From IMG/VR virus record IMGVR_UViG_2609459792_000007: 64,000 nucleotides of DNA, one strand, 5' to 3'. This document shows, in pieces, positions 3,172 through 52,270 of the stretch. Below the pieces are notes generated by a model. It was not told where the DNA came from. It did not search any database and saw nothing but the letters and a program-made list of their open reading frames with translations. Position numbers and translations under genes: made by a program. The DNA comes from a virus. Its lineage: Duplodnaviria; Heunggongvirae; Uroviricota; Caudoviricetes. Position 1 is the stretch's first letter. Each line of letters starts with the position of its first letter.

Positions 3172-4512
3172 ATGACCGAACTTTGCCATACAGGACGCGG
3201 GCTGTCCGAAGAGTTTGATGAAGATTTCCAGAACAGACTGACGGCATATTTTTGTCGTGATCACGAGTTTCTTACTCGTGCGGGAGATCTGGTTGTGCCT
3301 AGCCAATTTGCCAATGCGGCCAATGCCATATTGGTTAATATGGTTTCGGGCTATTACCGTATGTACAAGAGCGCGCCCTCTTCATCTGCAATTCTGGATA
3401 TGCTTAAGCGTGCGAAACGCGATAAGACTATCCGTGAGGAACTATTCGCCGATGTTGTTGCTGCGTTTAAGCGCATCCTTGCAGAAAAATTGTCCGATAC
3501 CTCGTACATGGTTGACCAGGTATCAACCTTCGCAAAAAGCGTAGCGTTTGATGATGCTCTGATTAAGGCTGCTGAACTGAAAGAGAAAGGCGACTTTCAG
3601 GGGGCGATGGCAATCATGGCCAAGGTTCAGCAGATTGGATCGAACGAAGCGACCGGAATCTATGACTACTACACCTCCGCAAGTGAGCGATTGAAAGCGC
3701 GTGAATATGAGGCTTCAGAGGAGTATGTGCCAAACAGCATTACAACTGGACTCCCTCTGCTCGATAGGTTGCTGTACCAAAAAGGCTGGGCGAAGCGTGA
3801 AATGGTGCTCTTCATGGGGTTCGCTAAATCCGGTAAATCGACCGCAATGGGTGAGTTTTCCATAAACGCAACGCTTGCTGGCTACAATGTTCTGTATCTC
3901 TCGCTGGAGGTTCACACCAACATTTTGTCCGACCGTTTTGATGCAAGATTGTCGGAGACGGAAATGTCCAAGTTGGTGGAACGGCGCGATGAAGTTCATC
4001 GTAAGTTGGCAGAGTTGGGAGCCTCTAAGGGGATTGGTAGTTTGTGGGTTGTTGAGCGTCCGTCAGGAAGTATGTCACCGGCAGATCTGGACCGTATGCT
4101 TAACAGCATGAAAGCCAACGGCATGGTGCCTGACATGGTTGTTGTCGACTACGCAGATTTGATGCGTGCCAGTTATGACCTTCGTGATGATCGCGCCAAC
4201 ATTCGTAGTATCTACACCGATTTACGTGCTCTTTATGACAAGCATAACGTTGCTGGTATCACGGCGTCGCAAACAAACCGTGAAGGTGGCGCGTCAGAAG
4301 TTGCCACAATGATGCACGCTGCCGACAACATCGAAAAAGTACGTATTGCTGACCTGGTAATAACGATCAACAAAACCGAAGAAGAAGAAGCGAAAGGAGA
4401 GGCTCGTCTCTACTTTGCTGGTTCGCGTAACCAGCAGGGAGGGATCAGCATTCGCGTTAAACAAAACCTCGAACAAATGCGCTTCATTGAGCGGATCTTA
4501 GACGTTACCTAA
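3172..4512 (+). CDS. DnaB-like replicative helicase (RecA-fold ATPase)
   Basis: Walker A GFAKSGKST, Walker B-like MVVVDYADL, C-terminal RecA-like core; conserved aaaggaaagcacATG start context. Confidence 0.75.
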   Translation: MTELCHTGRGLSEEFDEDFQNRLTAYFCRDHEFLTRAGDLVVPSQFANAANAILVNMVSGYYRMYKSAPSSSAILDMLKRAKRDKTIREELFADVVAAFKRILAEKLSDTSYMVDQVSTFAKSVAFDDALIKAAELKEKGDFQGAMAIMAKVQQIGSNEATGIYDYYTSASERLKAREYEASEEYVPNSITTGLPLLDRLLYQKGWAKREMVLFMGFAKSGKSTAMGEFSINATLAGYNVLYLSLEVHTNILSDRFDARLSETEMSKLVERRDEVHRKLAELGASKGIGSLWVVERPSGSMSPADLDRMLNSMKANGMVPDMVVVDYADLMRASYDLRDDRANIRSIYTDLRALYDKHNVAGITASQTNREGGASEVATMMHAADNIEKVRIADLVITINKTEEEEAKGEARLYFAGSRNQQGGISIRVKQNLEQMRFIERILDVT

Positions 4513-23824: not shown

Positions 23825-24898
23825 ATGGCAAAAGGAAAATCCGCACTGGCACTTGCTCTGAAAAAGAAAATCGGTAGCAACGACGAAATTCAGAAAGTAA
23901 CTCATTGGATTGACACAGGCTTTCCTCCGTTAAACAAAGCTATTTCCGGTCGTTACGATGGCGGTTTCCCATGTGGTCGTATCGTAGAAGTATTCGGGCC
24001 GCCAAGCGCGGGGAAAACCTTTTTGGCAACAGCAGCAATGATCTCCGCTCAGAAACAAGATGGTCTGGCGGTATTCCTCGATCATGAGAACAGTTTTGAC
24101 GTTGGCCTGGCGGTAGCCAATGGCTTGAATGCAGATGAGGATGACGGTCAGTGGGTATACAAGCAGCCAGATACCTTCGAAGACTCTGTAGAGTTGATCG
24201 GCACAATACTTAAATTGGTACGTGATGAAGAGCTTATCCCTGAATCAGCACCTATCTGTATCGTGGCTGACTCACTTGCGTCTATGGTTCCGAACTCCAA
24301 AGCCGAGAAGTTCGAAAAGATGGCTGAAGGCACTGCTAAAGACAAAGATCAGCTAAACATGAACGACAATACGGCGCTTGCTCGTGCGACGAGCGCAAAC
24401 TTCCCCACTCTGGCTTTGTGGGCACGCAAATATAACGCCTGCATTATTTTCTTGAATCAGGTTCGCACAAAAATCGGTGTAATGTTTGGCGACCCTACGA
24501 CGTCGCCAGGCGGCGATTCACCGAAGTTTTACGCTTCTGTGCGCATCCGTCTCGGTGCATCGGTGATGAAGGATGGTAAAGAGAAGATCGGTCAGGACGT
24601 AGGCGCAGAGTGCATCAAAAACAAAGTTGCACCACCGTATGGCAAGTGCACCTGGAAATTCTACTTCGATCCTACTCGTGGCCTCGACGTTATCGAATCG
24701 CTCGTCGAGTACATGCTGGAAGAAGGATACCTGCCAAAGAACGCCAGCGGTCGAGTAGAAATTGGTGACAAGAAATACACCAAATCACAGATCGTCGAGA
24801 TGTATCGGGAGAAGCCACTAGCTGAAATCATTGCGGCTTTACAGGCAATCGACGACCGGAGATCAAAAGACAATCCCACCGAGTCAGTAGAAGAGTAA
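23825..24898 (+). CDS. RecA-like recombinase
   Basis: Walker A GPPSAGKTFLA; RecA-like core VEVFGPPSAGKT...FLDHENSFD. Confidence 0.8.
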   Translation: MAKGKSALALALKKKIGSNDEIQKVTHWIDTGFPPLNKAISGRYDGGFPCGRIVEVFGPPSAGKTFLATAAMISAQKQDGLAVFLDHENSFDVGLAVANGLNADEDDGQWVYKQPDTFEDSVELIGTILKLVRDEELIPESAPICIVADSLASMVPNSKAEKFEKMAEGTAKDKDQLNMNDNTALARATSANFPTLALWARKYNACIIFLNQVRTKIGVMFGDPTTSPGGDSPKFYASVRIRLGASVMKDGKEKIGQDVGAECIKNKVAPPYGKCTWKFYFDPTRGLDVIESLVEYMLEEGYLPKNASGRVEIGDKKYTKSQIVEMYREKPLAEIIAALQAIDDRRSKDNPTESVEE

Positions 24899-24902
24899 AC
24901 AC

Positions 24903-24927
24903 AAGGCGTCCACAGGACGCCTTTTTT
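24903..24927 (+). terminator. Terminator after RecA-like gene
   Basis: aaggcgtcc-aca-ggacgcctt hairpin plus T6. Confidence 0.7.
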
Positions 24928-24990
24928 ATCTCTTGAAAATATATAAGTACTTACTTATCATTTTCACATAACAACCACATAGGAAAACAC

Positions 24991-25191
24991 ATGATCAAAA
25001 TCTATCTATTGGCAGTAGCCACAGGCCTTTCAGTGGCTCTCATCTACGGATTACTGGTTCCGTCGCTGATTTCTGCAAAGAGTGATTTGGCCGTCATGCT
25101 TGGAGTTATTGTTGGTTTTGGCGCTCCAGTAATCGGTCTTATTGGTGGTCGTAAGTTTATTAACTCATTAATCAAAGCAAAGGGGAAATAA
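24991..25191 (+). CDS. Small two-TM membrane protein
   Basis: 66 aa; two hydrophobic segments; stop 4 bp before SPFH gene start. Confidence 0.45.
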   Translation: MIKIYLLAVATGLSVALIYGLLVPSLISAKSDLAVMLGVIVGFGAPVIGLIGGRKFINSLIKAKGK

Positions 25192-25194
25192 GTA

Positions 25195-26025
25195 ATGAAG
25201 AAAGGTTTACTTGCAGTTGCTCTGGCGGCTATTTGCACAATGGGTCTTACTGGCTGTGATCGCGTAGAGCCTGGATACGTTGGCATCAAAGTAAACAAAT
25301 TAGGTGAAGACAAAGGGATTGGTGAAGTGGTTGGCGTTGGTCGCCAATGGACAGGTCTTAACACCGAACTTTACGTATTCCCGACCTTCAAACAAATGAA
25401 GACCTACGACGAGCCGTTCACATTCCAGATGAGTGACGGTACTGCTATTGGTCACAAAATTGGCGTTGCGTATCTGGTTAATCGTGACAAGGTAACGACG
25501 GTGTTCCAGACCTATCGCAAAGGCGTAGACGATATCACCGAATCAGATCTGCGTCAGAAAATTGCCGACTCTCTAAACCGTTTGGCCAGCCGTATGACCA
25601 CTGACTCATTTATCGACGGTGGTAAGGCACAATTGTTGGACAACGCACTGAAAGATATTCAGAAAGAGATGTCTCCGGTTGGTATTGAGGTACTGAGCCT
25701 GTCATGGGTTGGAAAGCCTGATTACCCAAAAACCGTCATTGAATCTATCAACGCCAAAGTAACGGCTAACCAGCGTACTCTGCAACGTCAGCAGGAAGTC
25801 GAACAGCGTAAAGCTGAGGCGAATATGCTGCGTGAACAGGCTAATGGTGAAGCTGATGCTATCCGTGCTCGTGCGCAAGCAGAAGCAGACGCCATTCGTC
25901 TGCGCGGTGAAGCTCTGCGTCAAAACCCGAACGTTATGGAACTGGAAGCCATCAATAAATGGAATGGCCAGTTACCGCAGTACATGACTCAAGGGGCTAA
26001 CACTCCTTTCATTACAGTGAAATAA
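25195..26025 (+). CDS. SPFH/band-7 (prohibitin-like) lipoprotein
   Basis: Signal peptide with lipobox LTGC; SPFH-like core; C-terminal Ala/Glu/Arg-rich coiled coil. Confidence 0.55.
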   Translation: MKKGLLAVALAAICTMGLTGCDRVEPGYVGIKVNKLGEDKGIGEVVGVGRQWTGLNTELYVFPTFKQMKTYDEPFTFQMSDGTAIGHKIGVAYLVNRDKVTTVFQTYRKGVDDITESDLRQKIADSLNRLASRMTTDSFIDGGKAQLLDNALKDIQKEMSPVGIEVLSLSWVGKPDYPKTVIESINAKVTANQRTLQRQQEVEQRKAEANMLREQANGEADAIRARAQAEADAIRLRGEALRQNPNVMELEAINKWNGQLPQYMTQGANTPFITVK

Positions 26026-26043
26026 CTCTCTTTAAGAAGATCA

Positions 26044-26066
26044 GGCGTCCAGTTGGACGCCGTTTT
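26044..26066 (+). terminator. Terminator after SPFH gene
   Basis: ggcgtcc-agtt-ggacgcc hairpin plus T-run. Confidence 0.6.
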
Positions 26067-26120
26067 ATTCTCGTTATTATCACATACAAGAAAACAATTT
26101 GTTAAAAGGTAAAGTTAATT

Positions 26121-26945
26121 ATGCCCAACCACATTACAAACGAAATCCGAGTCATAGGTGGTACAAATAAACAACGCTTAGATTTCATACGTGCCATAAC
26201 TAACAAAAAAGGTCTAATTGACTTTAATACCATTTGCAGACGTCCGAAAAGTATAGAAATGGAAGAAAACAATCATATCAGGCGCATGGCCTCTGCAATG
26301 GCGGGCGAAACAGTTTACGACTACATGTTCGGTGAATTAAAGACTCCAGAACAGGTCGAATTAGCTATGCGTGAATCTGGAATGACACGCAAGGAAATTC
26401 GCAAAATCAAAGAGCAGGCTCTTATGCGGCTTGAGAATTATCGTCGCTATGGCTATTACTCATGGTTTGACTGGTCGCGAGCTAATTGGGGAACAAAATG
26501 GAATGCCTACAACATCGAAATGCCCGTAAAACGTATCCCTACACGTATTAAGTACGGCCATAATTTCCGCCATACACACATTCGAGCATATGCAAAACGA
26601 ATCTATAAAAAACGTCTTGCAAGACATGCCGCAACTGGTGGTGAGTTGGTGATTCGCTTTGAAACAGCCTGGTCTATGCCAAAACCAATTTATCAAGCGA
26701 TGGCTAGAAAGTTCCCGCACCTTGAGTTTGTAATACGTTATGCAGACGAAGACTTCGGCAATAACTGCGGATTCATTTTACTTCGCAACGGCAAATGGGA
26801 ATATGACTACATTGCACCGGCGAATAACGAACAATCGTCAGAAGAAAAAATCAAATGGCGCAAGTTCGCCTTTGAGTTATGTTGTCCTGGTATCACTCCA
26901 CAAGAATACGGTCTAAATGAAGAATACGAATACGCCGGATATTAA
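26121..26945 (+). CDS. Hypothetical protein (Trp-rich, basic)
   Basis: 274-aa ORF in AT-rich island; no confident family assignment. Confidence 0.45.
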   Translation: MPNHITNEIRVIGGTNKQRLDFIRAITNKKGLIDFNTICRRPKSIEMEENNHIRRMASAMAGETVYDYMFGELKTPEQVELAMRESGMTRKEIRKIKEQALMRLENYRRYGYYSWFDWSRANWGTKWNAYNIEMPVKRIPTRIKYGHNFRHTHIRAYAKRIYKKRLARHAATGGELVIRFETAWSMPKPIYQAMARKFPHLEFVIRYADEDFGNNCGFILLRNGKWEYDYIAPANNEQSSEEKIKWRKFAFELCCPGITPQEYGLNEEYEYAGY

Positions 26946-26990
26946 AGAATTGTCATTTGGCTTTACGCTCGAAGCATAGTGGTTAAGAAG

Positions 26991-27731
26991 ATGAAAAGAA
27001 AAATTGAAGAACCAAAAACGACACTTAATAAACATGGGGAAAAAATTCAAACACACCCAGCGTTCGGTCTTGTGAAAACAAGCCGTGTTAGCACGACTGG
27101 CATTCGTCTATTTGATTCAGAACTGGAACATAGAGACTATATTGAAATAGGCGTTTACGAGGCTGAACTGTCCTTAGACAATGAACGAACCCGGCCACAA
27201 AGGAGTAGCAATAGACGGCCTTTAGTTGAAATTAGACTTAGCCAGGCACAATGGGCTGCTATGGTTAGCAGTTTTGGTGTGGGCGAAGGTGTGCCATGCA
27301 CTATTTCATATAAAACCATTGGCGACTCAATTAGAGTTCATGATATTGCCGAGCAAAAAAGTATTCGGCAAAAATTCAACGATCAAATAAAGGCAGCTAC
27401 GAATAGTGAGATTGATCGACTTAATCAGCAAGTTTCAGAGCTAGGTGAGCTTGTGAAAAAAGGAAGAGCTGGAAAACGTGACCTTGAAGAACTATATAGA
27501 AAACTTGCATCTGCTGTAGCTAACCTTCCTGAAAATCTGTGCTTTGCTACCGAATTAATGCAGGAGCAAATGGATGAAATTGTCTCATCTGGAAAGGCGG
27601 AGATTGAGGCGTATGTTGCAGGCACTGTTATGCGTAAAGGGTTAGCAGCATTAGGCACAGAATCATGCATTAACGATGATCCTACTGTCTCTATCACCAA
27701 AATGGAAAGCGGTAAAGAATTACTGCCATAA
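26991..27731 (+). CDS. Hypothetical protein
   Basis: ORF; ATG at 26991 preferred over GTG at 26979. Confidence 0.4.
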   Translation: MKRKIEEPKTTLNKHGEKIQTHPAFGLVKTSRVSTTGIRLFDSELEHRDYIEIGVYEAELSLDNERTRPQRSSNRRPLVEIRLSQAQWAAMVSSFGVGEGVPCTISYKTIGDSIRVHDIAEQKSIRQKFNDQIKAATNSEIDRLNQQVSELGELVKKGRAGKRDLEELYRKLASAVANLPENLCFATELMQEQMDEIVSSGKAEIEAYVAGTVMRKGLAALGTESCINDDPTVSITKMESGKELLP

Positions 27732-27751
27732 ATGCATCTGAGGTACTGACA

Positions 27752-28141
27752 ATGCTTTTAATTCAACCTGGTTTCGGTTTAAAGATAAAAAAAGGGCATA
27801 TGTTTGGTGAGCGAGATTCCAAACGAAAAATTCTGTCTATTCGATTACCATTTATCACCATTCATTGGTTAAACAGAGAGTCAACCGATTATTGGTATAA
27901 ATGCGCAAGAGCAGCATTTAACGACCCTGACTGGTTTGTAGAAAATCACCACGCGGTTCGTCAGGCAAAAAGAAAGGCTAATACGACATATATGAAGGCA
28001 TATCAGGATGCCTGGGAAGAACATCGTGGCCGATACCAAAAAAACATTGAAAAACTTGAATCAGAAAATATGGACCTAAGAAGAAAACTCGGTGAAGCAC
28101 GTCGAGACATCGAAGCATATAAACGTCTTGTATCGGAGTGA
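27752..28141 (+). CDS. Hypothetical protein with C-terminal coiled coil
   Basis: 129-aa ORF; start uncertain (alternative ATG at 27797). Confidence 0.35.
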   Translation: MLLIQPGFGLKIKKGHMFGERDSKRKILSIRLPFITIHWLNRESTDYWYKCARAAFNDPDWFVENHHAVRQAKRKANTTYMKAYQDAWEEHRGRYQKNIEKLESENMDLRRKLGEARRDIEAYKRLVSE

Positions 28142-28143
28142 AT

Positions 28144-28278
28144 ATGACTTTACGTTGTTTTTTCAAAGGGCATAGTTTTTCACTATACAGAAACAGAAAT
28201 AATAATGGGGCATTCTACATATGTAGTAAATGTGGGAGGACAAAATATCTTCCAGATGTCAAATTTGAAGGTCCTTAA
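28144..28278 (+). CDS. Small Cys-rich (zinc-ribbon-like) ORF
   Basis: 44-aa ORF below track cutoff: C-x4-H ... C-x2-C (CFFKGH...CSKCG); starts 3 bp after the previous stop. Confidence 0.3.
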   Translation: MTLRCFFKGHSFSLYRNRNNNGAFYICSKCGRTKYLPDVKFEGP

Positions 28279-28304
28279 ATGTTTGCATTAAATGGGCAAT
28301 ACAG

Positions 28305-28721
28305 ATGATCACAACAGACTTTTCTAAATTAAGTGATTTTGAAATTAACAGACGAGTATGTGAGGCTTTAGATATGGAGGAGTATTTCTTCATACCTGAT
28401 GACGAAGCAAATTTCGATTCGGAGATCCCCACTGACGAAAGAGGTCCTGTTTGGCAGACGTCAAAAAGGGATATTAATGGCTTCCGTGCTTCAAACGGAA
28501 ATTGCTTCAATCCTTGCAACAACCCGGCGGACGCAAAGCCTATTATCGTAGAGAACAGAATTGGCATTATTCCTGCGCCAGAAAATGGATTATGGAAGGC
28601 TGCGCATAGAAAGATTGGTAACGATAATACTCCATACCATATGACTCAAAATGTAAATCCACTCCGCGCCGCCATGATTGTCTTTCTGATGATGAAAGAA
28701 AGTGAGAGTTGTACCGATTAA
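28305..28721 (+). CDS. Hypothetical protein
   Basis: 138-aa ORF in AT-rich island; contains FNPCNNPADAKPIIVENRI. Confidence 0.4.
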   Translation: MITTDFSKLSDFEINRRVCEALDMEEYFFIPDDEANFDSEIPTDERGPVWQTSKRDINGFRASNGNCFNPCNNPADAKPIIVENRIGIIPAPENGLWKAAHRKIGNDNTPYHMTQNVNPLRAAMIVFLMMKESESCTD

Positions 28722-29020
28722 TGAATATATACGATTTTTTTAAAAAACCTAACACATGTGTCAGAAAAGGGTATAGACCGTCAGTCATCGATTGCTGGTC
28801 GCTATCAGCAAATAATCTCAACAATGTATTCAAAATGCATTGGGAGTTTCTTTGTGAAGCGCGCGGCGTTCTCGACATGACAGTCAGAGAAGCAATTATC
28901 TGGATTCTTTGGTTTCCGGTAAGAACATTTATGACTCTGACGTACCCATTTATCTTCTGGATTTGGGGAACCGTCCTTTATTTCATATTAAAAGGAGAAG
29001 TAAAACATGGCAGCAATTAA
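28721..29020 (+). CDS. Small membrane protein
   Basis: ATG overlaps previous stop (TAATG); hydrophobic segments IIWILWFPV and LTYPFIFWIWGTVLYFIL. Confidence 0.4.
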   Translation: MNIYDFFKKPNTCVRKGYRPSVIDCWSLSANNLNNVFKMHWEFLCEARGVLDMTVREAIIWILWFPVRTFMTLTYPFIFWIWGTVLYFILKGEVKHGSN

Positions 29021-29432
29021 GAAACTCTACGATGCCGCAAACGCGGCTCTGGATGTTATTGATGATGAAGTATCAAAAGGCTTTCCTGAACCTGATTGGG
29101 CGCATCAACTACGAAATGCTATCGCCGAAATGAATCCACCAGATCCGACCACCGACGAGACAGACTGGCAGCGATTTATCCGTATGTACGCTCAGGAAAT
29201 AGGTCCAACGCCAACGGCAGAGCAAGCAATGCTGCTGAAATACTTCAAAGAGGCGGGAGAGGATTTACCAATTGATGACTCAGCATATTGGTTCCACTGC
29301 GCATGGCGTAAGTATGACGTGATATTCACACAAGGCATGGGGAGCAAAGATATGGTTGTGTGGCATCTACTCCATATAGACACAGCCGTTGACAGAGTCA
29401 TTGAACAGTTTTTCCCTAAACAAGAAGATTGA
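29007..29432 (+). CDS. Hypothetical protein
   Basis: 141-aa ORF with RBS aaaggag. Confidence 0.45.
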   Translation: MAAIKKLYDAANAALDVIDDEVSKGFPEPDWAHQLRNAIAEMNPPDPTTDETDWQRFIRMYAQEIGPTPTAEQAMLLKYFKEAGEDLPIDDSAYWFHCAWRKYDVIFTQGMGSKDMVVWHLLHIDTAVDRVIEQFFPKQED

Positions 29433-29487
29433 TCGCCTATTCATAACTAACAAAATAAGTAAACACTAACCACAAAAGGAAAAACAC

Positions 29488-29763
29488 ATGAGAGTTTTAG
29501 TTCGAATCGTTACCAGCACTGTCTATGACGTGTTTCCGCTTTTTATGGTCAAAGCCGATGGTCTTAACGACGAAGAAACTGACGCGCTGATCCAGCGTAT
29601 TCTCGTTGAATATACAGGTCATGACGCTGATTCAGTGATGGTTGATGATGATGGTGTTTGTTGGCATAACGGCAACTGTTGGTACGTAGAAGAGACTCAA
29701 CAAATCAGTGATGAAGATGCCGCACATCTTGAGCGTATTTTAAGCATCAGCACTTTTGAGTGA
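29488..29763 (+). CDS. Hypothetical acidic small protein
   Basis: 91 aa; conserved aaaaggaaaaacacATG start context. Confidence 0.45.
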   Translation: MRVLVRIVTSTVYDVFPLFMVKADGLNDEETDALIQRILVEYTGHDADSVMVDDDGVCWHNGNCWYVEETQQISDEDAAHLERILSISTFE

Positions 29764-29978
29764 GTTTACAGTAAAATTTATATAAGTTAGTATCTACCTA
29801 TCATGAAGATTTTTATTGAATACTTGTTACTCATCGTGTCAATAGCTTTTGTCATCGACTGCATTTTCACTGGTGTCATTCGTAAAGTCTTTTCCCCGGT
29901 GAACGACGTAGTCATAAACGCTTTGGCTATCGTGCTCGTATTTAATTCAGCATTTGATGTAATCAAAGAGGTGGCAGC

Positions 29979-30314
29979 ATGAAGGCCATCCCATTTGCGC
30001 TGTTGTTCCTTTCTTCGATCGTTGTGGCCGACACCACTGTTTATCAGTGTGAAATGTCTGTAGCCGACGTTAAGAATGGCGCTCTTACCGACGTCATAAA
30101 AGCACCATATGGAGCGATGGTCGTAGACAGCGGCGACCAGTTCTATGTTGTGCGTGACGATCGAGTGTTGTCATCCCCATATCTCACAAATCGTAATGGC
30201 AAATTAACCGGCGTCGGAGAAGACCACTTCGTATACAACAAATACAAGGGCTTCTATGGCGTTCACGCTTCTCAGCAAAGCTACCTTTTCGATGACTGCA
30301 AGGAGGTTGGATAA
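29979..30314 (+). CDS. Secreted small protein (signal peptide)
   Basis: N-terminal MKAIPFALLFLSSIVVA signal-like segment; two Cys. Confidence 0.45.
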   Translation: MKAIPFALLFLSSIVVADTTVYQCEMSVADVKNGALTDVIKAPYGAMVVDSGDQFYVVRDDRVLSSPYLTNRNGKLTGVGEDHFVYNKYKGFYGVHASQQSYLFDDCKEVG

Positions 30315-30526
30315 TGGCATTAACACTGGCAGGTCTGGAAATCGAGAAAACAAGCGGCTACTGGCGTGCTAAGGGTTTCAAGCAGCCTGGCATTCTTGAG
30401 CGTCTGGAACGTGAAGATGGGTATATCGTCCACCAGCGGCGTGAATGGCGTATGTACGATCCAGAAACAGGAAAACTGACTACAAAAGCCGGAACACTTT
30501 GGGGTCTGTTGAAGAAAATACACTAA
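30314..30526 (+). CDS. Hypothetical small protein
   Basis: 70-aa ORF overlapping previous stop. Confidence 0.35.
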   Translation: MALTLAGLEIEKTSGYWRAKGFKQPGILERLEREDGYIVHQRREWRMYDPETGKLTTKAGTLWGLLKKIH

Positions 30527-30569
30527 TAGCACCAACCACTGCGGTGAGTAGTCTACTCACCGCATTCGT

Positions 30570-31012
30570 ATCCAGCTCATTATCCACTGTAGTCAGTAAC
30601 AAAACCTTCCTACATATCTGCTAACCACTGTAGCGAGTAGACAGCCTTTCATTCGCATCAAACAACCACTATGGTGAGTATTGGAGTGAGATGTCCAGCG
30701 GGTATCCACTATGGTGAGTAAGCCTTTGCTGTTTTCAGTGGATATCCACTCGCCACAGTGGATACGCTCAAAGATGAGGGCGACAACAACCACTATAGAC
30801 AGTAAATTTTCCAAGATACCCAGTGACCACTAACCTCGCAGCCCTTGTTTCATCAGTGTTAGTGATCACTAACATTTAATTCAGTATTTGCATTCTACTG
30901 CCTACAGTGGTTATCAACAGATAACGATACTCACTATAGTGGATAGCGAATTACAGATATAAGTAAGGCTCACTACAGTGGATAGTGAGTCTTACTACTA
31001 ACTACAGTGGTT
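30570..31012. repeat. Iteron array downstream of repA (incA-like), at least 10 copies
   Basis: Repeated CCACTRTRG / CYAYAGTGG cores, e.g. ccactgtagtcagtaac, ccactatggtgagta (x2), ctcactatagtggatagcg, ctcactacagtggatagtgag; orientation switches near 30900. Confidence 0.8.
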
Positions 31013-31015
31013 GGG

Positions 31016-32071
31016 CTATTTGCGAGTCTTTGCCTTGCGCAACTCTTCGAGAAGCGCCAGTTCTTCTTTACTCAACATGACCATTTTGCCTTCTTTTTCG
31101 TCAGGCACAACGTCGATAATGTCATCTTGATTCTCATCTGGGAGGCTATATTCCGTCTCATCATTATCGATTTTTGTTGATATTTGTGCCTGGCGTAACT
31201 TTGGCCGCCTATAGTGGATGACGAAGTAGACCGAGTTTCCGCGCTTAACTTCCGTGTAATCGAGATATCCTATCTCTCGCAGCTGTTCCATAGCCTTTCT
31301 TACCGTCGCATTCTGAGTAATAGTGCGACTTGTCAGATTAAGTCTGGCGCGTAAACGGGCTAGTGATATTGGTGCCGGATCAGGCGGCAAACTTTCAATA
31401 AAAGTATAAAGCGCCTGAGCGGATTCTTTTCTTGAGAGTTCGTTTATAGCCCGGAGTTGCAGAAGAACCTTTTTGTCGAACTGGTAGAGTTCGAAAATCT
31501 TGGGATCTGCTTTCAGTTCGACCGTATCGTGCTTGACACTATATTTTGCCGTTTGCACAAGATGCGTTACGTAAAACTCATCAGAGCCTTTGCTACGGAA
31601 CGAGATGGTATTTGTGGCAATACGGCTTAGCGAACTGTCCAGGCGTTTGCGTAACTTCGCTGATGACCTGGCGGTCGGAATGCCACACAGCCTTACAAAC
31701 TCAACGAACGGCAACGTGACAGTATCGCCAACGACCTTGTGTTTGGCAAACGCGTGGATTATTCCCACCCACGTTTTAAAGTCGTTATCCATATCAAGCC
31801 GAAGGCCAGAGATCCTTATGTCTTCGTACCCTTCGGCTTTTGCCAGAGACAGCTGTTTGAGTTCAGCAGAGGCATCCATAGAGACCATTTGCCCCTTTCT
31901 TCCTCTGGATGTCGATTTCAGCGTCGGAACGAAGAGGCCCAGACGCATCAAAGCAACAGGCTGAACAGTGTTATTAGTGTTAGGAACCAACGTAACAACT
32001 TCGCCTGTCTTTTTATCTGTTTCTGAAAATGCTTCAACGATCGCTATGTTTTTATTGCCGTTTTCGCTCAT
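31016..32071 (-). CDS. repA: RepA/RepE-family iteron-binding replication initiator
   Basis: 351 aa; flanked by iteron arrays on both sides; from memory resembles RepFIB/P1-type RepA (not searched). Confidence 0.75.
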
Positions 32072-32099
32072 TCCAAATGTCTCTTGTTATTCGACGGCT

Positions 32100-32240
32100 T
32101 TGGTGGCCTTTGCTGATTACAGTGGATAGTAGCACTCATCACAGCGGTTATCCTACCGTCTATAGTGGTTTTTCTCCTCTCTATAGTGGTTGCTTTGCTC
32201 CCTATAGTGGATTGTTCGCTCTCTATAGTGGATATCGATC
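32100..32240. repeat. Iteron array upstream of repA (origin/promoter-proximal), about 5 copies
   Basis: ttacagtggatag, ctatagtggtttttc, ctatagtggttgc, ctatagtggattg, ctatagtggatat at ~21-22 bp spacing. Confidence 0.8.
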
Positions 32241-32280
32241 ATGTCTGAAGGCAGATGGCACAACGGTTTGAGGTGGGCGG

Positions 32281-32500
32281 GGATCTTATTGGGTCTTTAT
32301 GGGTCTCTTTGGTTCTCTTTGTGATCTGAATTACTGGATCGGGCCTGTGGATAAAAATCAGAGAATTTCAAGAACAGGTAACTCTACTCTTCTGTGGATA
32401 TTTAAGGACATAAGAATCATGACTAAGAGTAGAGTTTAAAATATATCTATGTATATCAGTATGTTAATGAAGAATTAAGTCATTAAGTTATCCATAAAAG
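32281..32500. other. Origin-like region: GATC cluster, DnaA boxes, AT-rich unwinding stretch
   Basis: GATC sites at 32282-32340; tgtggataa (32347-32355, perfect reverse DnaA box) and tgtggatat (32393-32401); AT-rich 32437-32500; ttatccata near 32489. Confidence 0.65.
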
Positions 32501-32504
32501 ACAA

Positions 32505-32715
32505 TGTGCTCTACTCTCTACAGTGGATATATACAGCTCTCCAGAGTGGTTGTTTTACTCTTCATAGCGGTTATTCAGCTCTCTACAGAGGTTTCTTTGC
32601 TCTCCATAGTGGATGGCAACACCCTTTCAGACCAGTAACCGCAACGGCTAGAGGCGATCGGGGATCTCTTTGGATCTTCTATTTGATCTTACTTGGGATC
32701 TCTTATTTGGATCTA
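32505..32715. repeat. Second iteron set plus second GATC cluster
   Basis: ctctacagtggatat, ctccagagtggttg, ttcatagcggttat, ctctacagaggttt, ctccatagtggatgg, then six GATC within 32655-32715. Confidence 0.7.
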
Positions 32716-32814
32716 TCCAGTGGATAACTGGGATAAGTAAAACAGGCAAATGCAGATTAAGGTATGCCTAATGAGTTATCGTAGCATCGGCCAATAACTA
32801 CTGAAAAAACGATT

Positions 32815-33459
32815 ATGGATCTAAAACGCACGCGCTGGGTTCGTCGTCTTGAGGACGGCTCCTACACTATCGAATCAAATTCCAACCTGAATAAGCAGAA
32901 GTTACTTTGTGATATCTGCGGTATAGCGGCGAAGTGCCCGATCTACGAAACCAGAATTAAACTTGATAAGGCTGGTGTGAACTTTCATTTGAATAGTTGT
33001 ATCAGGTACGTTCCATTGCTCGCATTTCGTAAACCGATCATCGGATTGGATGCGCCCTACTTCAACACACTCCGTTCAGGGGTAACGTGGCGAGATCGTT
33101 TATCACCAGACAAGCTGATTTGCCTCGTATCCGCAGACACAGGGAAAATCATCCGTTTTGGGAAAGTAGACAAGGTTTACTCAGGCCCAGTTGACGAGAT
33201 GTTGCGGAAACACAGCCGGTTTAATCACCTCTGCATGGGTGGTGAGAAAATCGAGAAGGTTGAAGAAGTGATCCGCAAATCCTACGGACACTTCCTGACC
33301 AAAGATAGCCTGCTCACTGCAATCTACATCAGACATGTAAAACGTGAGTTCGACCTTGAATACCATAGCGAAGAAGAACTGAACCTTGTCGATCCACGTC
33401 CTAAAGCTGGCGTCATAAGCATAAATGCAGCGCGTAAAAAGCCCACTGACGCGCTGTAA
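32815..33459 (+). CDS. Hypothetical protein
   Basis: 214-aa ORF beside the replicon. Confidence 0.45.
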   Translation: MDLKRTRWVRRLEDGSYTIESNSNLNKQKLLCDICGIAAKCPIYETRIKLDKAGVNFHLNSCIRYVPLLAFRKPIIGLDAPYFNTLRSGVTWRDRLSPDKLICLVSADTGKIIRFGKVDKVYSGPVDEMLRKHSRFNHLCMGGEKIEKVEEVIRKSYGHFLTKDSLLTAIYIRHVKREFDLEYHSEEELNLVDPRPKAGVISINAARKKPTDAL

Positions 33460-37687: not shown

Positions 37688-38257
37688 ATGAGTAAAAAAA
37701 TCAGCGTAGTTGGTGTTGATCCCTCAATGAGCAACTTTGGGCTTGCTGTGGGCACTTTAGACCTTGAGACGGACGAACTTGAGATTCACGGCCTTACTCT
37801 TGTTGAGACTAAAGCGGGGAGTAACAAAAAGACCGTTCGTGTGAACAGTGACGATCTGCGCCGCGCCAGTGAAATATGGCGTGTTGCGAAGCCAATCATT
37901 GATAAGGCAAATATGGTTTTTTGTGAGCTACCGGTTGGGAGCCAAAACTCTCGTTCGCAGACGTCTTACGGTATTTGTATCGGTGTACTTGCGTGTGTGG
38001 ATAAGCCATTGATCCAGGTTACTCCAAACGAAATCAAGCATTTTGTCGGCAATAAACTTACTACATCGAAAGAAGAGATTATCCAGTGGGCTACGAAAAA
38101 ACACCCTAAAGCACCGTGGCTGCGTCGTAAGCAATCTGGACAGGATGTTCTCGTGAACAAAAACGAACATTTGGCTGATGCGGTGGCTGCCATCCATACC
38201 GGTATGCAAACAGATCAGTTCCGCCAGGTGCGCGATGTTCTTAAGTCTCTCATTTGA
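37688..38257 (+). CDS. RuvC-like Holliday junction resolvase (RNase H fold)
   Basis: N-terminal VVGVDPSMSNFGLAV resembles the RuvC first catalytic motif; 189 aa. Confidence 0.5.
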   Translation: MSKKISVVGVDPSMSNFGLAVGTLDLETDELEIHGLTLVETKAGSNKKTVRVNSDDLRRASEIWRVAKPIIDKANMVFCELPVGSQNSRSQTSYGICIGVLACVDKPLIQVTPNEIKHFVGNKLTTSKEEIIQWATKKHPKAPWLRRKQSGQDVLVNKNEHLADAVAAIHTGMQTDQFRQVRDVLKSLI

Positions 38258-51700: not shown

Positions 51701-52270
51701 ATGTGCAAGAAATGCAAAGCGATAGCTGATGAACAAAACGCCTTATTCGAAGAAATGGATGCTAATGAACTGGTCAAAATGTTAGCCATTCTTCGAGGAA
51801 TAGAAGACGTTTCCATATTTGAGAGAGTGGTTACAGCACTTAATTTTGAGTCCACCTTTGAAGAGCCAACTCAGGTTGTAGCTTTAGCACATCATTTCGG
51901 TGTTCATTATCTTGCTGAAAAAGAGCGCGCTGATAAGTTGCAGGCGACTTTGGATATGGTGAGCGAGACTCAACGAACTGATGACACTAACAAGAGTGAG
52001 GCGATTATTGCCAGCAAAGATCGTGAAATTGCTGGGCTTAAATCCTCTCTAACGATGTTGATGTCTGCGTTCAATCTTATGTCTTCTCAGGCGGGTTATA
52101 AAATGCCATCACTAAACAGCGATGATCCGATGGCCGTTCGTCAGCTTTTGGGAGCAATGGCCGACCAACTCGACGACACAAAGAGTCGGCTTGAAGACAT
52201 GATGCGTGAGTTAAGCCATCGACATAACCTCGCAACACAGCCACACAAAGCCTTTCAAAGCTCTAATTGA
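51701..52270 (+). CDS. Hypothetical protein (N-terminal CxxC)
   Basis: 189 aa; conserved cacATG start context; terminator-like hairpin after stop. Confidence 0.45.
   Translation: MCKKCKAIADEQNALFEEMDANELVKMLAILRGIEDVSIFERVVTALNFESTFEEPTQVVALAHHFGVHYLAEKERADKLQATLDMVSETQRTDDTNKSEAIIASKDREIAGLKSSLTMLMSAFNLMSSQAGYKMPSLNSDDPMAVRQLLGAMADQLDDTKSRLEDMMRELSHRHNLATQPHKAFQSSN

What the first reader, a model, noticed from the sequence alone, without database searches (positions are those of the whole stretch)
26100..29000. AT-rich accessory island of uncharacterised proteins, including an unannotated 44-aa zinc-ribbon-like ORF
Downstream of the SPFH gene the sequence becomes AT-rich and encodes several proteins with no recognisable enzymatic motifs, a small membrane protein, and a 44-aa Cys/His ORF (28144-28278) below the ORF-track cutoff. 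The island lies between the conserved replication genes and the repA replicon, a typical location for defence or anti-defence cargo.
Basis: seen in the sequence. Interest (0 to 1): 0.55.

Follow-up and report, generated by a model that had tools for sequence, protein, structure and literature searches.

The report
Variable accessory gene cassettes in phage-plasmid
This is a real but fairly ordinary 2.9-kb swappable block of six small phage genes of unknown function, one of them a zinc-ribbon-like gene that no annotation pipeline has called, at a hotspot of a 110-kb E. coli phage-plasmid; it matches no known defence system.

Summary
Window 26113-28987 is the lowest-GC 2.9-kb stretch of the window (40.5% vs 45.8%). 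It carries six tightly packed, co-oriented ORFs between the SPFH gene and a conserved DUF7238 gene of an SSU5-type phage-plasmid.

The block is a true presence/absence polymorphism. About 87% of close relatives have an empty site, including Cyrano, which produces virions. Others carry sub-sets or different cassettes, giving at least seven configurations. Both borders lie in a 22-nt repeat over the ribosome-binding sites. No transposase, inverted repeats or integron signature is present.

The cassettes are phage early-region genes:
- a DUF1281_C/Api92-like protein
- an orphan protein confined to phage-plasmids
- a 129-aa ORF and a NinX, alternative occupants of the lambdoid ninE-ninF slot
- a 99-aa hydrophobic-tailed protein
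- the 44-aa ORF

The 44-aa ORF is real. It has a Shine-Dalgarno site and five distant homologues with conserved Cys/His ligands, and its prophage homologues lie between Lar and NinB. It is absent from a 15-billion-protein collection.

No defence or anti-defence family matches. The most likely role, by inference only, is dispensable early lytic accessory genes (host takeover or counter-defence). This is a new member of a known kind; interest is low to moderate.

The parts
26044..26061 (+). Terminator-like hairpin (GGCGTCCAGTTGGACGCC followed by a T-run) after the SPFH gene. It belongs to the conserved backbone and the island begins about 50 nt downstream.
   Evidence: The same sequence is present in the empty-site relative L003 and in L007.
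26102..26123 (+). Left border repeat TTAAAAGGTAAAGTTAATTATG, covering the ribosome-binding site and start codon of the first island gene.
   Evidence: Direct-repeat family D5, 17 of 22 identical to 28988-29009, spacing 2886 nt. The core TTAAAAGGNNAAGT occurs only at these two places in the 64 kb. Empty-site relatives join 26112 to 28988.
26121..26945 (+). ORF274, a DUF1281_C (Api92/YubB-type ferredoxin-like) protein of unknown function.
26991..27731 (+). ORF246 (250 aa from the GTG at 26979), an orphan family with an N-terminal beta domain and a long helical hairpin.
27752..28141 (+). ORF129, a homologue of the alternative occupant of the ninE-ninF slot in lambdoid and Stx phages, with a coiled-coil C-terminus.
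   Evidence: It is 82% identical in DNA to HK630_055, VT1-Sakai H0039/40 and similar genes. phrog_1511 has E 2.7e-76. pN/pS is 0.02-0.13, and the allele is swapped (87% identity) in L029 and L034.
28144..28278 (+). A 44-aa CHCC zinc-ribbon-like small protein that is not annotated anywhere.
   Evidence: SD GGAG lies 5 nt upstream of the ATG. phmmer against 1.8 billion representatives finds five small homologues with E 3e-6 to 8e-4. C5, H10 and C27 are invariant and C30 is kept in 5 of 6 sequences. Prophage homologues lie between Lar and NinB. The sequence is absent from the protein collection. Matches to NF041603 and phrog_7696 are weak.
28305..28721 (+). NinX (DUF2591) family protein.
   Evidence: PF10765 scores 61.3 bits against a cutoff of 22.6. 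It is 87% identical in DNA to Sf101 NinX, and patches are 95% identical to chromosomal prophage NinX genes.
28721..29020 (+). ORF99, a small protein with three Cys and a hydrophobic aromatic C-terminal tail. Its start overlaps the NinX stop by 1 nt.
   Evidence: phrog_2638 has E 1.8e-17. tblastn finds 29-37% identity in 21 phages, namely Kagunavirus-like phages (next to the helicase-primase gene) and Dickeya jumbo phages. It is called in GenBank records but not in the RefSeq relatives examined.
28170..28977 (+). An 808-bp sub-cassette (44-aa ORF, NinX and ORF99) that is itself present or absent.
   Evidence: It is missing from p09EL50-type relatives (L002). The complete segment is present in only 8 of 5426 complete E. 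coli genomes, always on plasmids.
28988..29009 (+). Right border repeat TTAAAAGGAGAAGTAAAACATG, covering the ribosome-binding site and start codon of the conserved DUF7238 gene.
29007..29432 (+). DUF7238 gene, the first conserved backbone gene downstream. It is context, not part of the island.
   Evidence: PF23885 has E 6e-38. The gene is present in all empty-site relatives.

Best explanation
Shown by the data:
- The window is an SSU5-supergroup phage-plasmid of Escherichia.
- Positions 26113-28987 are one filled state of a recombination hotspot between the SPFH gene and the DUF7238 gene.
- The hotspot holds a shuffled array of small phage early-region genes, comparable to a miniature nin region.
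- Cassettes are gained, lost and exchanged by recombination at short similar sequences over the ribosome-binding sites at gene boundaries. Partners include other phage-plasmids and lambdoid prophages.
- The genes are intact and under purifying selection, yet dispensable for plasmid maintenance and virion production.

Inferred:
- The six genes have no signals of their own and are packed with gaps of 45, 20, 2, 26, -1 and -14 nt. They are therefore probably read through with the early replication/recombination operon (gp32-like, FEN, RecA-like, SPFH, then DUF7238 and the genes after it).
- That operon is quiet in the plasmid-prophage state, so the genes would be made after infection or induction.
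- Their products are most likely non-enzymatic binders: a ferredoxin-like DUF1281 protein, coiled-coil proteins, an acidic NinX, a zinc-ribbon peptide and a membrane-tailed peptide.
- They probably adjust the host to the phage in a host-strain-dependent way, through counter-defence or host takeover. That would explain why their presence is patchy.

I put about 0.85 on the structural and evolutionary part and about 0.4 on the counter-defence or host-takeover role. The overall confidence of 0.5 is for the two parts taken together.
For: Identity of the element:
- The window matches 188 non-mobilizable plasmids of about 110 kb and the phages CMS-2020a, Cyrano and PhiR41_1.

The block is an indel with several states:
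- In PLSDB, 12 records carry the full block, 13 lack the 808-bp sub-cassette and 163 show only the flanks; the ones examined have an empty site.
- A fourth state carries a different 68-aa ORF in place of ORF274 and ORF246.
- In IMG/VR, 24 of 26 close relatives are empty and 2 are partial. The Salmonella/Klebsiella-type relatives have three further configurations.
- The Salmonella order is 274-129-NinX-250-NinX.

Junctions:
- A 22-nt border repeat is unique to the two borders in the window.
- There are no terminal inverted repeats and no integrase.

Exchange with lambdoid phages:
- ORF129 is 82% and NinX 87-95% identical in DNA to lambdoid genes. Both homologues occupy the ninE-ninF slot.
- Homologues of the 44-aa ORF lie between Lar and NinB in prophages.
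- An allele swap occurs inside the island: ORF129 is 87% identical while its neighbours are 99%.

Selection:
- pN/pS is 0-0.13 for ORF246, ORF129 and NinX.

Dispensability:
- Cyrano has an empty site, produces virions and is induced by genotoxic stress (PMC9928086).

Expression context:
- Promoter-like sites are not in excess: 11 found against a mean of 13.6 in shuffles.
- Gene spacing is operon-like.
- From established knowledge, the lambda nin region belongs to the CI-repressed pR delayed-early operon.
Against: - No island protein matches any characterised anti-defence or host-takeover protein. All PHROG hits are 'unknown function', there are no informative PDB sequence hits, and the folds are uninformative beyond Api92, itself uncharacterised.
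- Expression timing is inferred from a relative that lacks the island and from a crude promoter scan. The terminator-like hairpin at 26044-26061 could block read-through, and weak internal promoter-like sites exist at 27116, 28177 and 28872.
- The direction of events (insertion versus deletion) is not resolved.
- Patchy distribution is equally expected for neutral passengers.
Confidence: 0.5

Rival explanations
1. The island is defence or superinfection-exclusion cargo. It would be expressed from the resident plasmid-prophage and protect the lysogen against other phages, for example through the membrane-tailed 99-aa protein or an abortive-infection pair.
For: - The locus is variable, AT-rich and patchily distributed, as defence hotspots are.
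- SSU5-type phage-plasmids do carry assorted defence systems elsewhere (10.1101/2025.09.12.675607).
- One product has a hydrophobic tail.
Against: - PADLOC gives no hit apart from coiled-coil noise.
- No enzymatic or NTPase domains are present.
- No promoter or terminator brackets the genes.
- The flanking operon is not among the genes expressed in the Cyrano lysogen.
- Homologues of three cassettes lie in lambdoid nin regions, which are repressed in lysogens.
Confidence: 0.12
2. The cassettes are auxiliary factors for the element's own DNA replication and recombination, analogous to NinB/Orf and NinG/Rap of lambda. They would act on phage DNA rather than on host defences.
For: - The island is embedded in a gp32 / FEN / RecA-like / SbcCD-like neighbourhood.
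- Homologous cassettes sit beside NinB and NinG in lambdoid phages.
- A zinc-ribbon peptide and basic proteins (pI 9.5-9.8 for ORF274, ORF129 and the 44-aa ORF) could bind nucleic acid.
Against: - None of the six is homologous to NinB, NinG, NinH or any known DNA-metabolism family.
- About 87% of close relatives do without them, which points away from a core replication function.
Confidence: 0.2
3. The block is a neutral or decaying passenger with no current function, and some of its ORFs, notably the 44-aa one, are not expressed.
For: - Most relatives lack the block.
- The 44-aa ORF has very low GC (32.6%), too few substitutions for a selection test and is never annotated.
- In p09EL50-type relatives its 5' part is degenerate intergenic sequence without an ATG.
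Against: - All six ORFs are intact in independent relatives.
- Purifying selection is strong on ORF246, ORF129 and NinX.
- Each family is conserved across distant phages.
- The Cys/His ligands of the 44-aa family are conserved at 36-51% identity.
Confidence: 0.1

Closest known systems
nin region of lambdoid phages (lambda, P22, HK620/HK630, Sf101, Stx phages)
   Same: - Both are tightly packed, co-oriented small non-essential ORFs downstream of replication genes.
- Both are mosaic, with alternative cassettes exchanged at gene boundaries.
- Three island ORFs (129 aa, 44 aa, NinX) have homologues inside nin regions. ORF129 and NinX are the two alternative fillers of the ninE-ninF slot.
   Different: - The host element is an SSU5-type phage-plasmid, not a lambdoid phage.
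- NinB, NinG, NinH and Q are not in or next to the block.
- ORF274, ORF246 and ORF99 are not nin-region genes.
- The block lies between an SPFH gene and the plasmid Rep gene.
P22 NinX / DUF2591 (Pfam PF10765)
   Same: The 138-aa ORF scores above the Pfam gathering threshold and shares up to 95% DNA identity in patches with prophage NinX genes.
   Different: No function is known for the family, so membership does not explain the mechanism.
Api92 / DUF1281 (PDB 2ijr; 'YubB ferredoxin-like domain')
   Different: - Sequence identity is 14% and Foldseek TM only 0.38 over the whole chain.
- The N-terminal PF06924 model does not match.
- This subfamily is found in phages and phage-plasmids, not in conjugative-plasmid leading regions.
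- Api92 itself has no known function.
Anti-defence islands of phages (e.g. the T5/SP15 'ADI' carrying Rad) and plasmid leading regions
   Same: Both are clusters of small variable early genes. Prophage homologues of the 44-aa ORF sit next to a Lar restriction-alleviation gene, and an ORF274 homologue sits next to a DNA methylase.
   Different: No island protein matches a characterised anti-defence protein. Rad is a 189-aa TOPRIM-type protein unrelated to any island ORF. The resemblance is by context only.
PSPA7_2676-family Cys-rich small proteins (NCBIfam NF041603) and other phage zinc-ribbon peptides
   Same: They share the small size and the pattern of a Cys/His knuckle followed by CxxC.
   Different: The score of 17.2 bits is below the cutoff of 35, so the ORF is not a member. 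The 44-aa family has a Cx4H first knuckle and the conserved motif C-[FL]-F-x-G-H-x-F.
Prophage morons
   Same: Both are accessory, AT-rich and variable between otherwise near-identical elements.
   Different: The island has no promoter or terminator bracket of its own, is co-oriented and translationally coupled with its neighbours, and lies in an operon that is not expressed in the Cyrano lysogen.

Membership tests
Phage_P22_NinX (PF10765 / DUF2591) | Pfam HMM match above the gathering score over the full domain | tested here: met
   ORF 28305-28721 scores 61.3 bits against a cutoff of 22.6 and covers profile positions 2-114 of 114. phrog_444 has E 3e-38.
DUF1281 / Api92-like | C-terminal ferredoxin-like domain (PF18406) above the gathering score | tested here: met
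   The score is 58.5 bits against a cutoff of 22.8, and all 120 listed homologues carry PF18406 except the two partial-coverage hits P0029 and P0030.
DUF1281 / Api92-like | Fold similarity to the solved Api92 structure 2ijr | tested here: met
DUF1281 / Api92-like | N-terminal DUF1281 domain (PF06924) | tested here: not met
   No PF06924 hit appears at E <= 1.
Known anti-phage defence systems (PADLOC-DB 2.0) | Any component HMM matches an island protein | tested here: not met
   The only hits are LmuB coiled-coil noise at E 0.007-0.015 and 12-13 bits; the other proteins have no hits.
Known anti-defence proteins | Homology to a characterised anti-defence family such as Rad, Ocr, ArdA, Lar, Ral, Gam or Abc2 | tested here: not met
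   All PHROG hits are 'unknown function' and Pfam and NCBIfam show no such family. Rad, the only anti-defence system reported in SSU5-type phage-plasmids, is a 189-aa TOPRIM-type protein. DefenseFinder and dbAPIS models themselves could not be run.
Lambdoid nin region | Homologous cassettes shared with nin regions | tested here: met
   ORF129 matches HK630_055 (82% DNA identity). NinX matches Sf101_0050 (87% DNA identity). Homologues of the 44-aa ORF lie between Lar and NinB.
Lambdoid nin region | Position between O/P-type replication genes and the Q antiterminator, together with NinB, NinG and NinH | tested here: not met
   The island and its flanks contain no NinB, NinG, NinH or Q. The host element is an SSU5-type phage-plasmid.
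Zinc ribbon (44-aa ORF) | Four metal ligands in two knuckles, conserved across homologues | tested here: inconclusive
   C5, H10 and C27 are invariant in 6 of 6 sequences and C30 is kept in 5 of 6. The first knuckle is Cx4H rather than CxxC.
NCBIfam NF041603 (PSPA7_2676 Cys-rich small protein) | Score above the curated cutoff | tested here: not met
   The score is 17.2 bits against a cutoff of 35.
Transposon, IS or integron cassette | Terminal inverted repeats, a transposase or integrase, or attC-like sites at the borders | tested here: not met
   The only border feature is a 22-nt imperfect direct repeat. No border inverted repeats are present and no recombinase domain is found.
Moron (autonomously expressed lysogenic-conversion gene) | Own promoter and terminator, and expression in the lysogen | tested here: inconclusive
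   Promoter-like sites are not above chance. Flanking genes CYRAN_53-62 are not among the genes at least 5-fold above background in the LF82 lysogen. Expression of the island itself cannot be tested here.

The most novel reading that the evidence does not exclude
The hotspot could be a counter-defence island of SSU5-type phage-plasmids in which at least one cassette is a new anti-defence family. Candidates are the DUF1281_C protein, the phage-plasmid-restricted ORF246, NinX, and the 44-aa zinc-ribbon peptide, which occupies the slot next to Lar in prophages. The combination of cassettes a given element carries would then set which host strains it can establish in.
Probability: 0.25. Interest if true: 0.6.

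Novelty: new member of a known kind. Interest (0 to 1): 0.3.

Why it matters
Phage-plasmids of this group are common in E. coli, Shigella sonnei and Salmonella Typhi lineages of clinical concern, and what sets their host range is poorly understood.

This work defines one precise, naturally polymorphic slot (26112|28988 in window coordinates) and at least seven natural configurations of it. Near-isogenic natural variants therefore already exist for testing what these 'hypothetical' early genes do.

It also shows direct gene traffic between phage-plasmids and lambdoid prophage nin regions. Finally, it adds a small zinc-ribbon-like gene that gene callers miss.

None of this is surprising to a phage genomicist, because mosaic accessory regions made of unknown small genes are the norm.

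Tried and rejected
- **Rad lead.** A survey reports Rad anti-retron in 16-22% of Escherichia and Shigella SSU5-type phage-plasmids, similar to the island's frequency. Rad is a 189-aa TOPRIM-type protein and no island ORF fits it. The lead was rejected for the island.
- **Mobile element or integron.** There are no inverted repeats and no recombinase.
- **Non-coding RNA.** Rfam gives no hit at E <= 0.1 for 24800-33000.
- **Defence system.** PADLOC is negative.
- **Conjugative-plasmid leading-region link via 'YubB'.** tblastn of ORF274 finds 46 plasmids, of which 42 are non-mobilizable and mostly phage-plasmid-sized (100-110 kb), and no IncF plasmids. The link is at best a remote domain resemblance.
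- **Tautomerase-like idea for ORF274.** The invariant Pro2 made me consider a catalytic N-terminal proline. No tautomerase appears among the fold hits, so the idea was dropped.
- **Searches for the 44-aa ORF.** tblastn against phage genomes and the word-indexed protein search found nothing. Only the exhaustive phmmer search found relatives.
- **Literature.** Searches for DUF1281, Api92, NinX and DUF2591 gave no functional data.
Full report
**What the window is.** The region 25900-29500 matches 188 PLSDB plasmids, almost all non-mobilizable and mostly around 110 kb. They come from Escherichia, Shigella and Citrobacter and carry replicon rep_cluster_488. It also matches the deposited phages CMS-2020a, Cyrano and PhiR41_1. 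Upstream lie a gp32-like SSB gene, a 5'-3' exonuclease gene, a RecA-like gene, a 66-aa membrane-protein gene and an SPFH lipoprotein gene. Downstream lie DUF7238, four small ORFs and a Rep gene on the opposite strand. The window is therefore an SSU5-supergroup phage-plasmid, the group described in PMC7969092 and in 10.1101/2025.09.12.675607.

**Check of the observation.** The stretch 26113-28987 has 40.5% GC against 45.8% for the window. It is the lowest-GC 2.9-kb stretch present, about 3.2 sd below windows that do not overlap it. It holds six + strand ORFs of 274, 246, 129, 44, 138 and 99 aa. The gaps between them are 45, 20, 2, 26 and -1 nt, and the last ORF overlaps the DUF7238 gene by 14 nt. 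Pfam recognises only DUF1281_C in the first ORF and NinX in the fifth. No ORF has an enzymatic domain. Each of the six hits a PHROG family of unknown function, although the 44-aa ORF does so only weakly (E 0.0019).

**The block is a real indel.**
- *Empty state.* Alignment with relatives shows an empty state that joins window 26112 to 28988. Examples are pRHB19-C05_2 (L003) and Cyrano (L108).
- *Second state.* p09EL50 (L002) lacks only 28170-28977, which carries the 44-aa ORF, NinX and ORF99.
- *Full state.* pMRY16-002_2 (L001) carries the whole block.
- *Fourth state.* pECOPRAWN_FPGL2 (L007) replaces ORF274 and ORF246 with an unrelated 68-aa ORF and keeps the rest.
- *PLSDB counts.* 12 records are full, 13 are p09EL50-type, and 163 show only the flanks; the ones examined have an empty site.
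- *E. coli genomes.* The complete 808-bp sub-cassette is present in 8 of 5426 complete genomes, always on plasmids.
- *IMG/VR.* Of 26 loci whose SPFH protein is at least 98.5% identical, 24 are empty, 2 are p09EL50-type and none is full.

**More distant relatives carry the same families in other arrangements.**
- A Salmonella element has SPFH-274-129-NinX-250-NinX-DUF7238.
- Klebsiella elements have SPFH-(56 or 77 aa)-250-58 aa and further small ORFs.
- Other elements carry NinX alone.
- The island proteins are 63-75% identical between E. coli and Salmonella, while RecA and SPFH are 93-96% identical.
- The locus is therefore a long-standing, fast-evolving cassette hotspot of the whole supergroup, not a recent import of foreign DNA.

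**How cassettes move.**
- Both borders fall in a 22-nt imperfect direct repeat (17 of 22 identical). It covers the ribosome-binding site and start codon of ORF274 on the left and of the DUF7238 gene on the right, and the two copies are 2886 nt apart.
- Its 14-nt core occurs nowhere else in the 64 kb: 2 matches were found against 0.34 expected, and 5 of 100 shuffles reached 2.
- There are no terminal inverted repeats, no recombinase and no Rfam match.
- In L029 and L034, ORF129 is only 87% identical in DNA while ORF274 and ORF246 beside it are 98-99% identical. This shows recombination within the island.
- This is the gene-boundary mosaicism classically described for lambdoid phages, which I state from established knowledge. 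Whether the E. coli empty state arose by deletion or the filled state by insertion cannot be decided from these data.

**What the cassettes are.**
- *ORF274.*
  - It has 847 homologues named 'YubB ferredoxin-like domain' or DUF1281.
  - Its AF2 model has pLDDT 92.9.
  - Homologues sit in prophage accessory regions, next to int/xis or next to a methylase and an HNH gene. In plasmids they occur almost only in phage-plasmid-sized replicons.
- *ORF246.*
  - It is an orphan with 56 homologues, nearly all on 100-110 kb enterobacterial contigs.
  - Its model shows a beta domain plus a long helical hairpin.
  - No informative fold or profile hit was obtained.
- *ORF129.* It is 82% identical in DNA to a gene of HK630, mEpX2, VT1-Sakai and many Stx phages that lies between ninE and ninF.
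- *NinX.* It is 87% identical in DNA to Sf101 NinX, which fills the same ninE-ninF slot. Patches are 95% identical to chromosomal prophage NinX genes.
- *ORF99.* It has homologues of 29-37% identity in Kagunavirus-like phages, next to the helicase-primase gene, and in Dickeya jumbo phages. Its C-terminal hydrophobic stretch is only borderline for a membrane segment.

**The 44-aa ORF.**
- Its ATG at 28144 is preceded by GGAG with a 5-nt spacer, two bases after the ORF129 stop codon.
- It is intact in L001 and L007.
- The word-indexed protein search and tblastn against phages found nothing.
- An exhaustive phmmer search of 1.8 billion representatives found five proteins of 35-67 aa, with E 3e-6 to 8e-4 and 36-51% identity.
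- The alignment keeps C5, G9, H10, F12, C27 and G31 in all sequences and C30 in five of six. This gives a Cx4H...CxxC pattern.
- In IMG/VR prophages the homologues lie in nin regions. They sit directly after a Lar restriction-alleviation gene (PF14354, E 5.5e-11) and before NinB (PF05772), with NinG- and Q-like genes downstream.
- Neither the 44-aa nor the 46-aa form is in the 15-billion-protein collection.
- The ORF is not annotated in the RefSeq relatives.
- It is a genuine, overlooked small gene. 'Zinc ribbon' remains a sequence-level inference.
- The matches to NF041603 (17.2 bits against a cutoff of 35) and to phrog_7696 are below membership level.

**Function.**
- No defence model matches, and neither does any characterised anti-defence family.
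- A frequency coincidence with the Rad anti-retron system reported in these phage-plasmids was followed and rejected. Rad is a 189-aa TOPRIM-type protein.
- ORF246, ORF129 and NinX are under purifying selection, with pN/pS 0-0.13.
- The block is nevertheless dispensable. Cyrano has the empty site, replicates at about 5.5 copies per cell, is induced by genotoxic stress and makes virions (PMC9928086).
- The block has no excess of promoter-like sites and is translationally coupled to the conserved downstream gene.
- The lambdoid homologues lie in the CI-repressed delayed-early operon, which I state from established knowledge.
- I therefore infer that these are early lytic-cycle accessory genes and not lysogen-expressed morons or defence genes.
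- Within that class, a host-strain-dependent role such as counter-defence or host takeover best fits the patchy distribution and the company kept by homologues (Lar, methylase). It remains untested, and I put it at about 0.4.
- Rivals are auxiliary replication or recombination factors (0.2), defence or exclusion (0.12) and neutral passengers (0.1).

**Verdict.** The reading as an 'accessory island at a variable locus' is right. The reading as 'defence or anti-defence cargo' is unproven, and its defence half is disfavoured. The feature is a new member of a known kind, a mosaic nin-like early accessory region. Its modest added value is a precisely defined hotspot with natural variants and one small gene that has never been annotated.

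Noticed in passing
window 31016-32071 (-): The window's Rep protein (351 aa) is the Cyrano-type allele. It is only about 50% identical to the 405-aa RepB/Rep3-family Rep of relatives whose flanking DNA is about 98% identical (L001, L002, L007). The replication initiator is therefore itself swapped between close relatives.
   Followed up: partly
window 32100-32650: Repeated peptide strings in the ORF translations (HYRE..., LYSGY...) suggest iteron-like DNA repeats on both sides of the upstream end of the Rep gene. I did not check this with the repeat tools.
   Followed up: no
window 24903-24923 and 26044-26061: Two terminator-like hairpins with nearly the same GC-rich stem (GGCGTCC...GGACGCC) follow the RecA-like gene and the SPFH gene. 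They could be attenuators that partition the early operon.
   Followed up: no
window 37688-38257 and 51701-52270 (+): There are two 189-aa ORFs, the size of the Rad anti-retron protein reported in 16-22% of SSU5-type phage-plasmids. The first has no Pfam hit. Homology to Rad was not tested because no Rad sequence was available.
   Followed up: partly
L007 2879-3111 (pECOPRAWN_FPGL2): A different cassette, a 68-aa ORF (MTRLLKIKKATDEF...) with no Pfam hit, occupies the place of ORF274 and ORF246 in this close relative.
   Followed up: partly
window 25195-26025 versus L001 and L007: The SPFH gene is only 96% identical to L001 and L007, with 16 non-synonymous changes, but 99% identical with none to L002, L029 and L034. 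This points to a recombination patch inside a backbone gene next to the hotspot.
   Followed up: no
L008-L021 (IMG/VR prophages), around position 3500-4200 of each locus: Prophage nin regions carry runs of several different small Cys-rich ORFs next to each other: Lar-family, DUF551-like and homologues of the 44-aa ORF. This suggests a recurrent zinc-finger peptide sub-cluster upstream of NinB.
   Followed up: partly
window 28259-28567 (-) and 28567-28878 (-): Two ORFs of about 100 aa lie antisense to NinX and ORF99. They are probably artefacts of the AT-rich sequence. I did not examine them.
   Followed up: no
window 24991-25191 (+) and 25195-26025 (+): A strongly hydrophobic 66-aa protein is encoded immediately before the SPFH lipoprotein and is conserved across the supergroup. 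This recalls NfeD/SPFH-type membrane pairs. There is no Pfam hit for the small partner.
   Followed up: no
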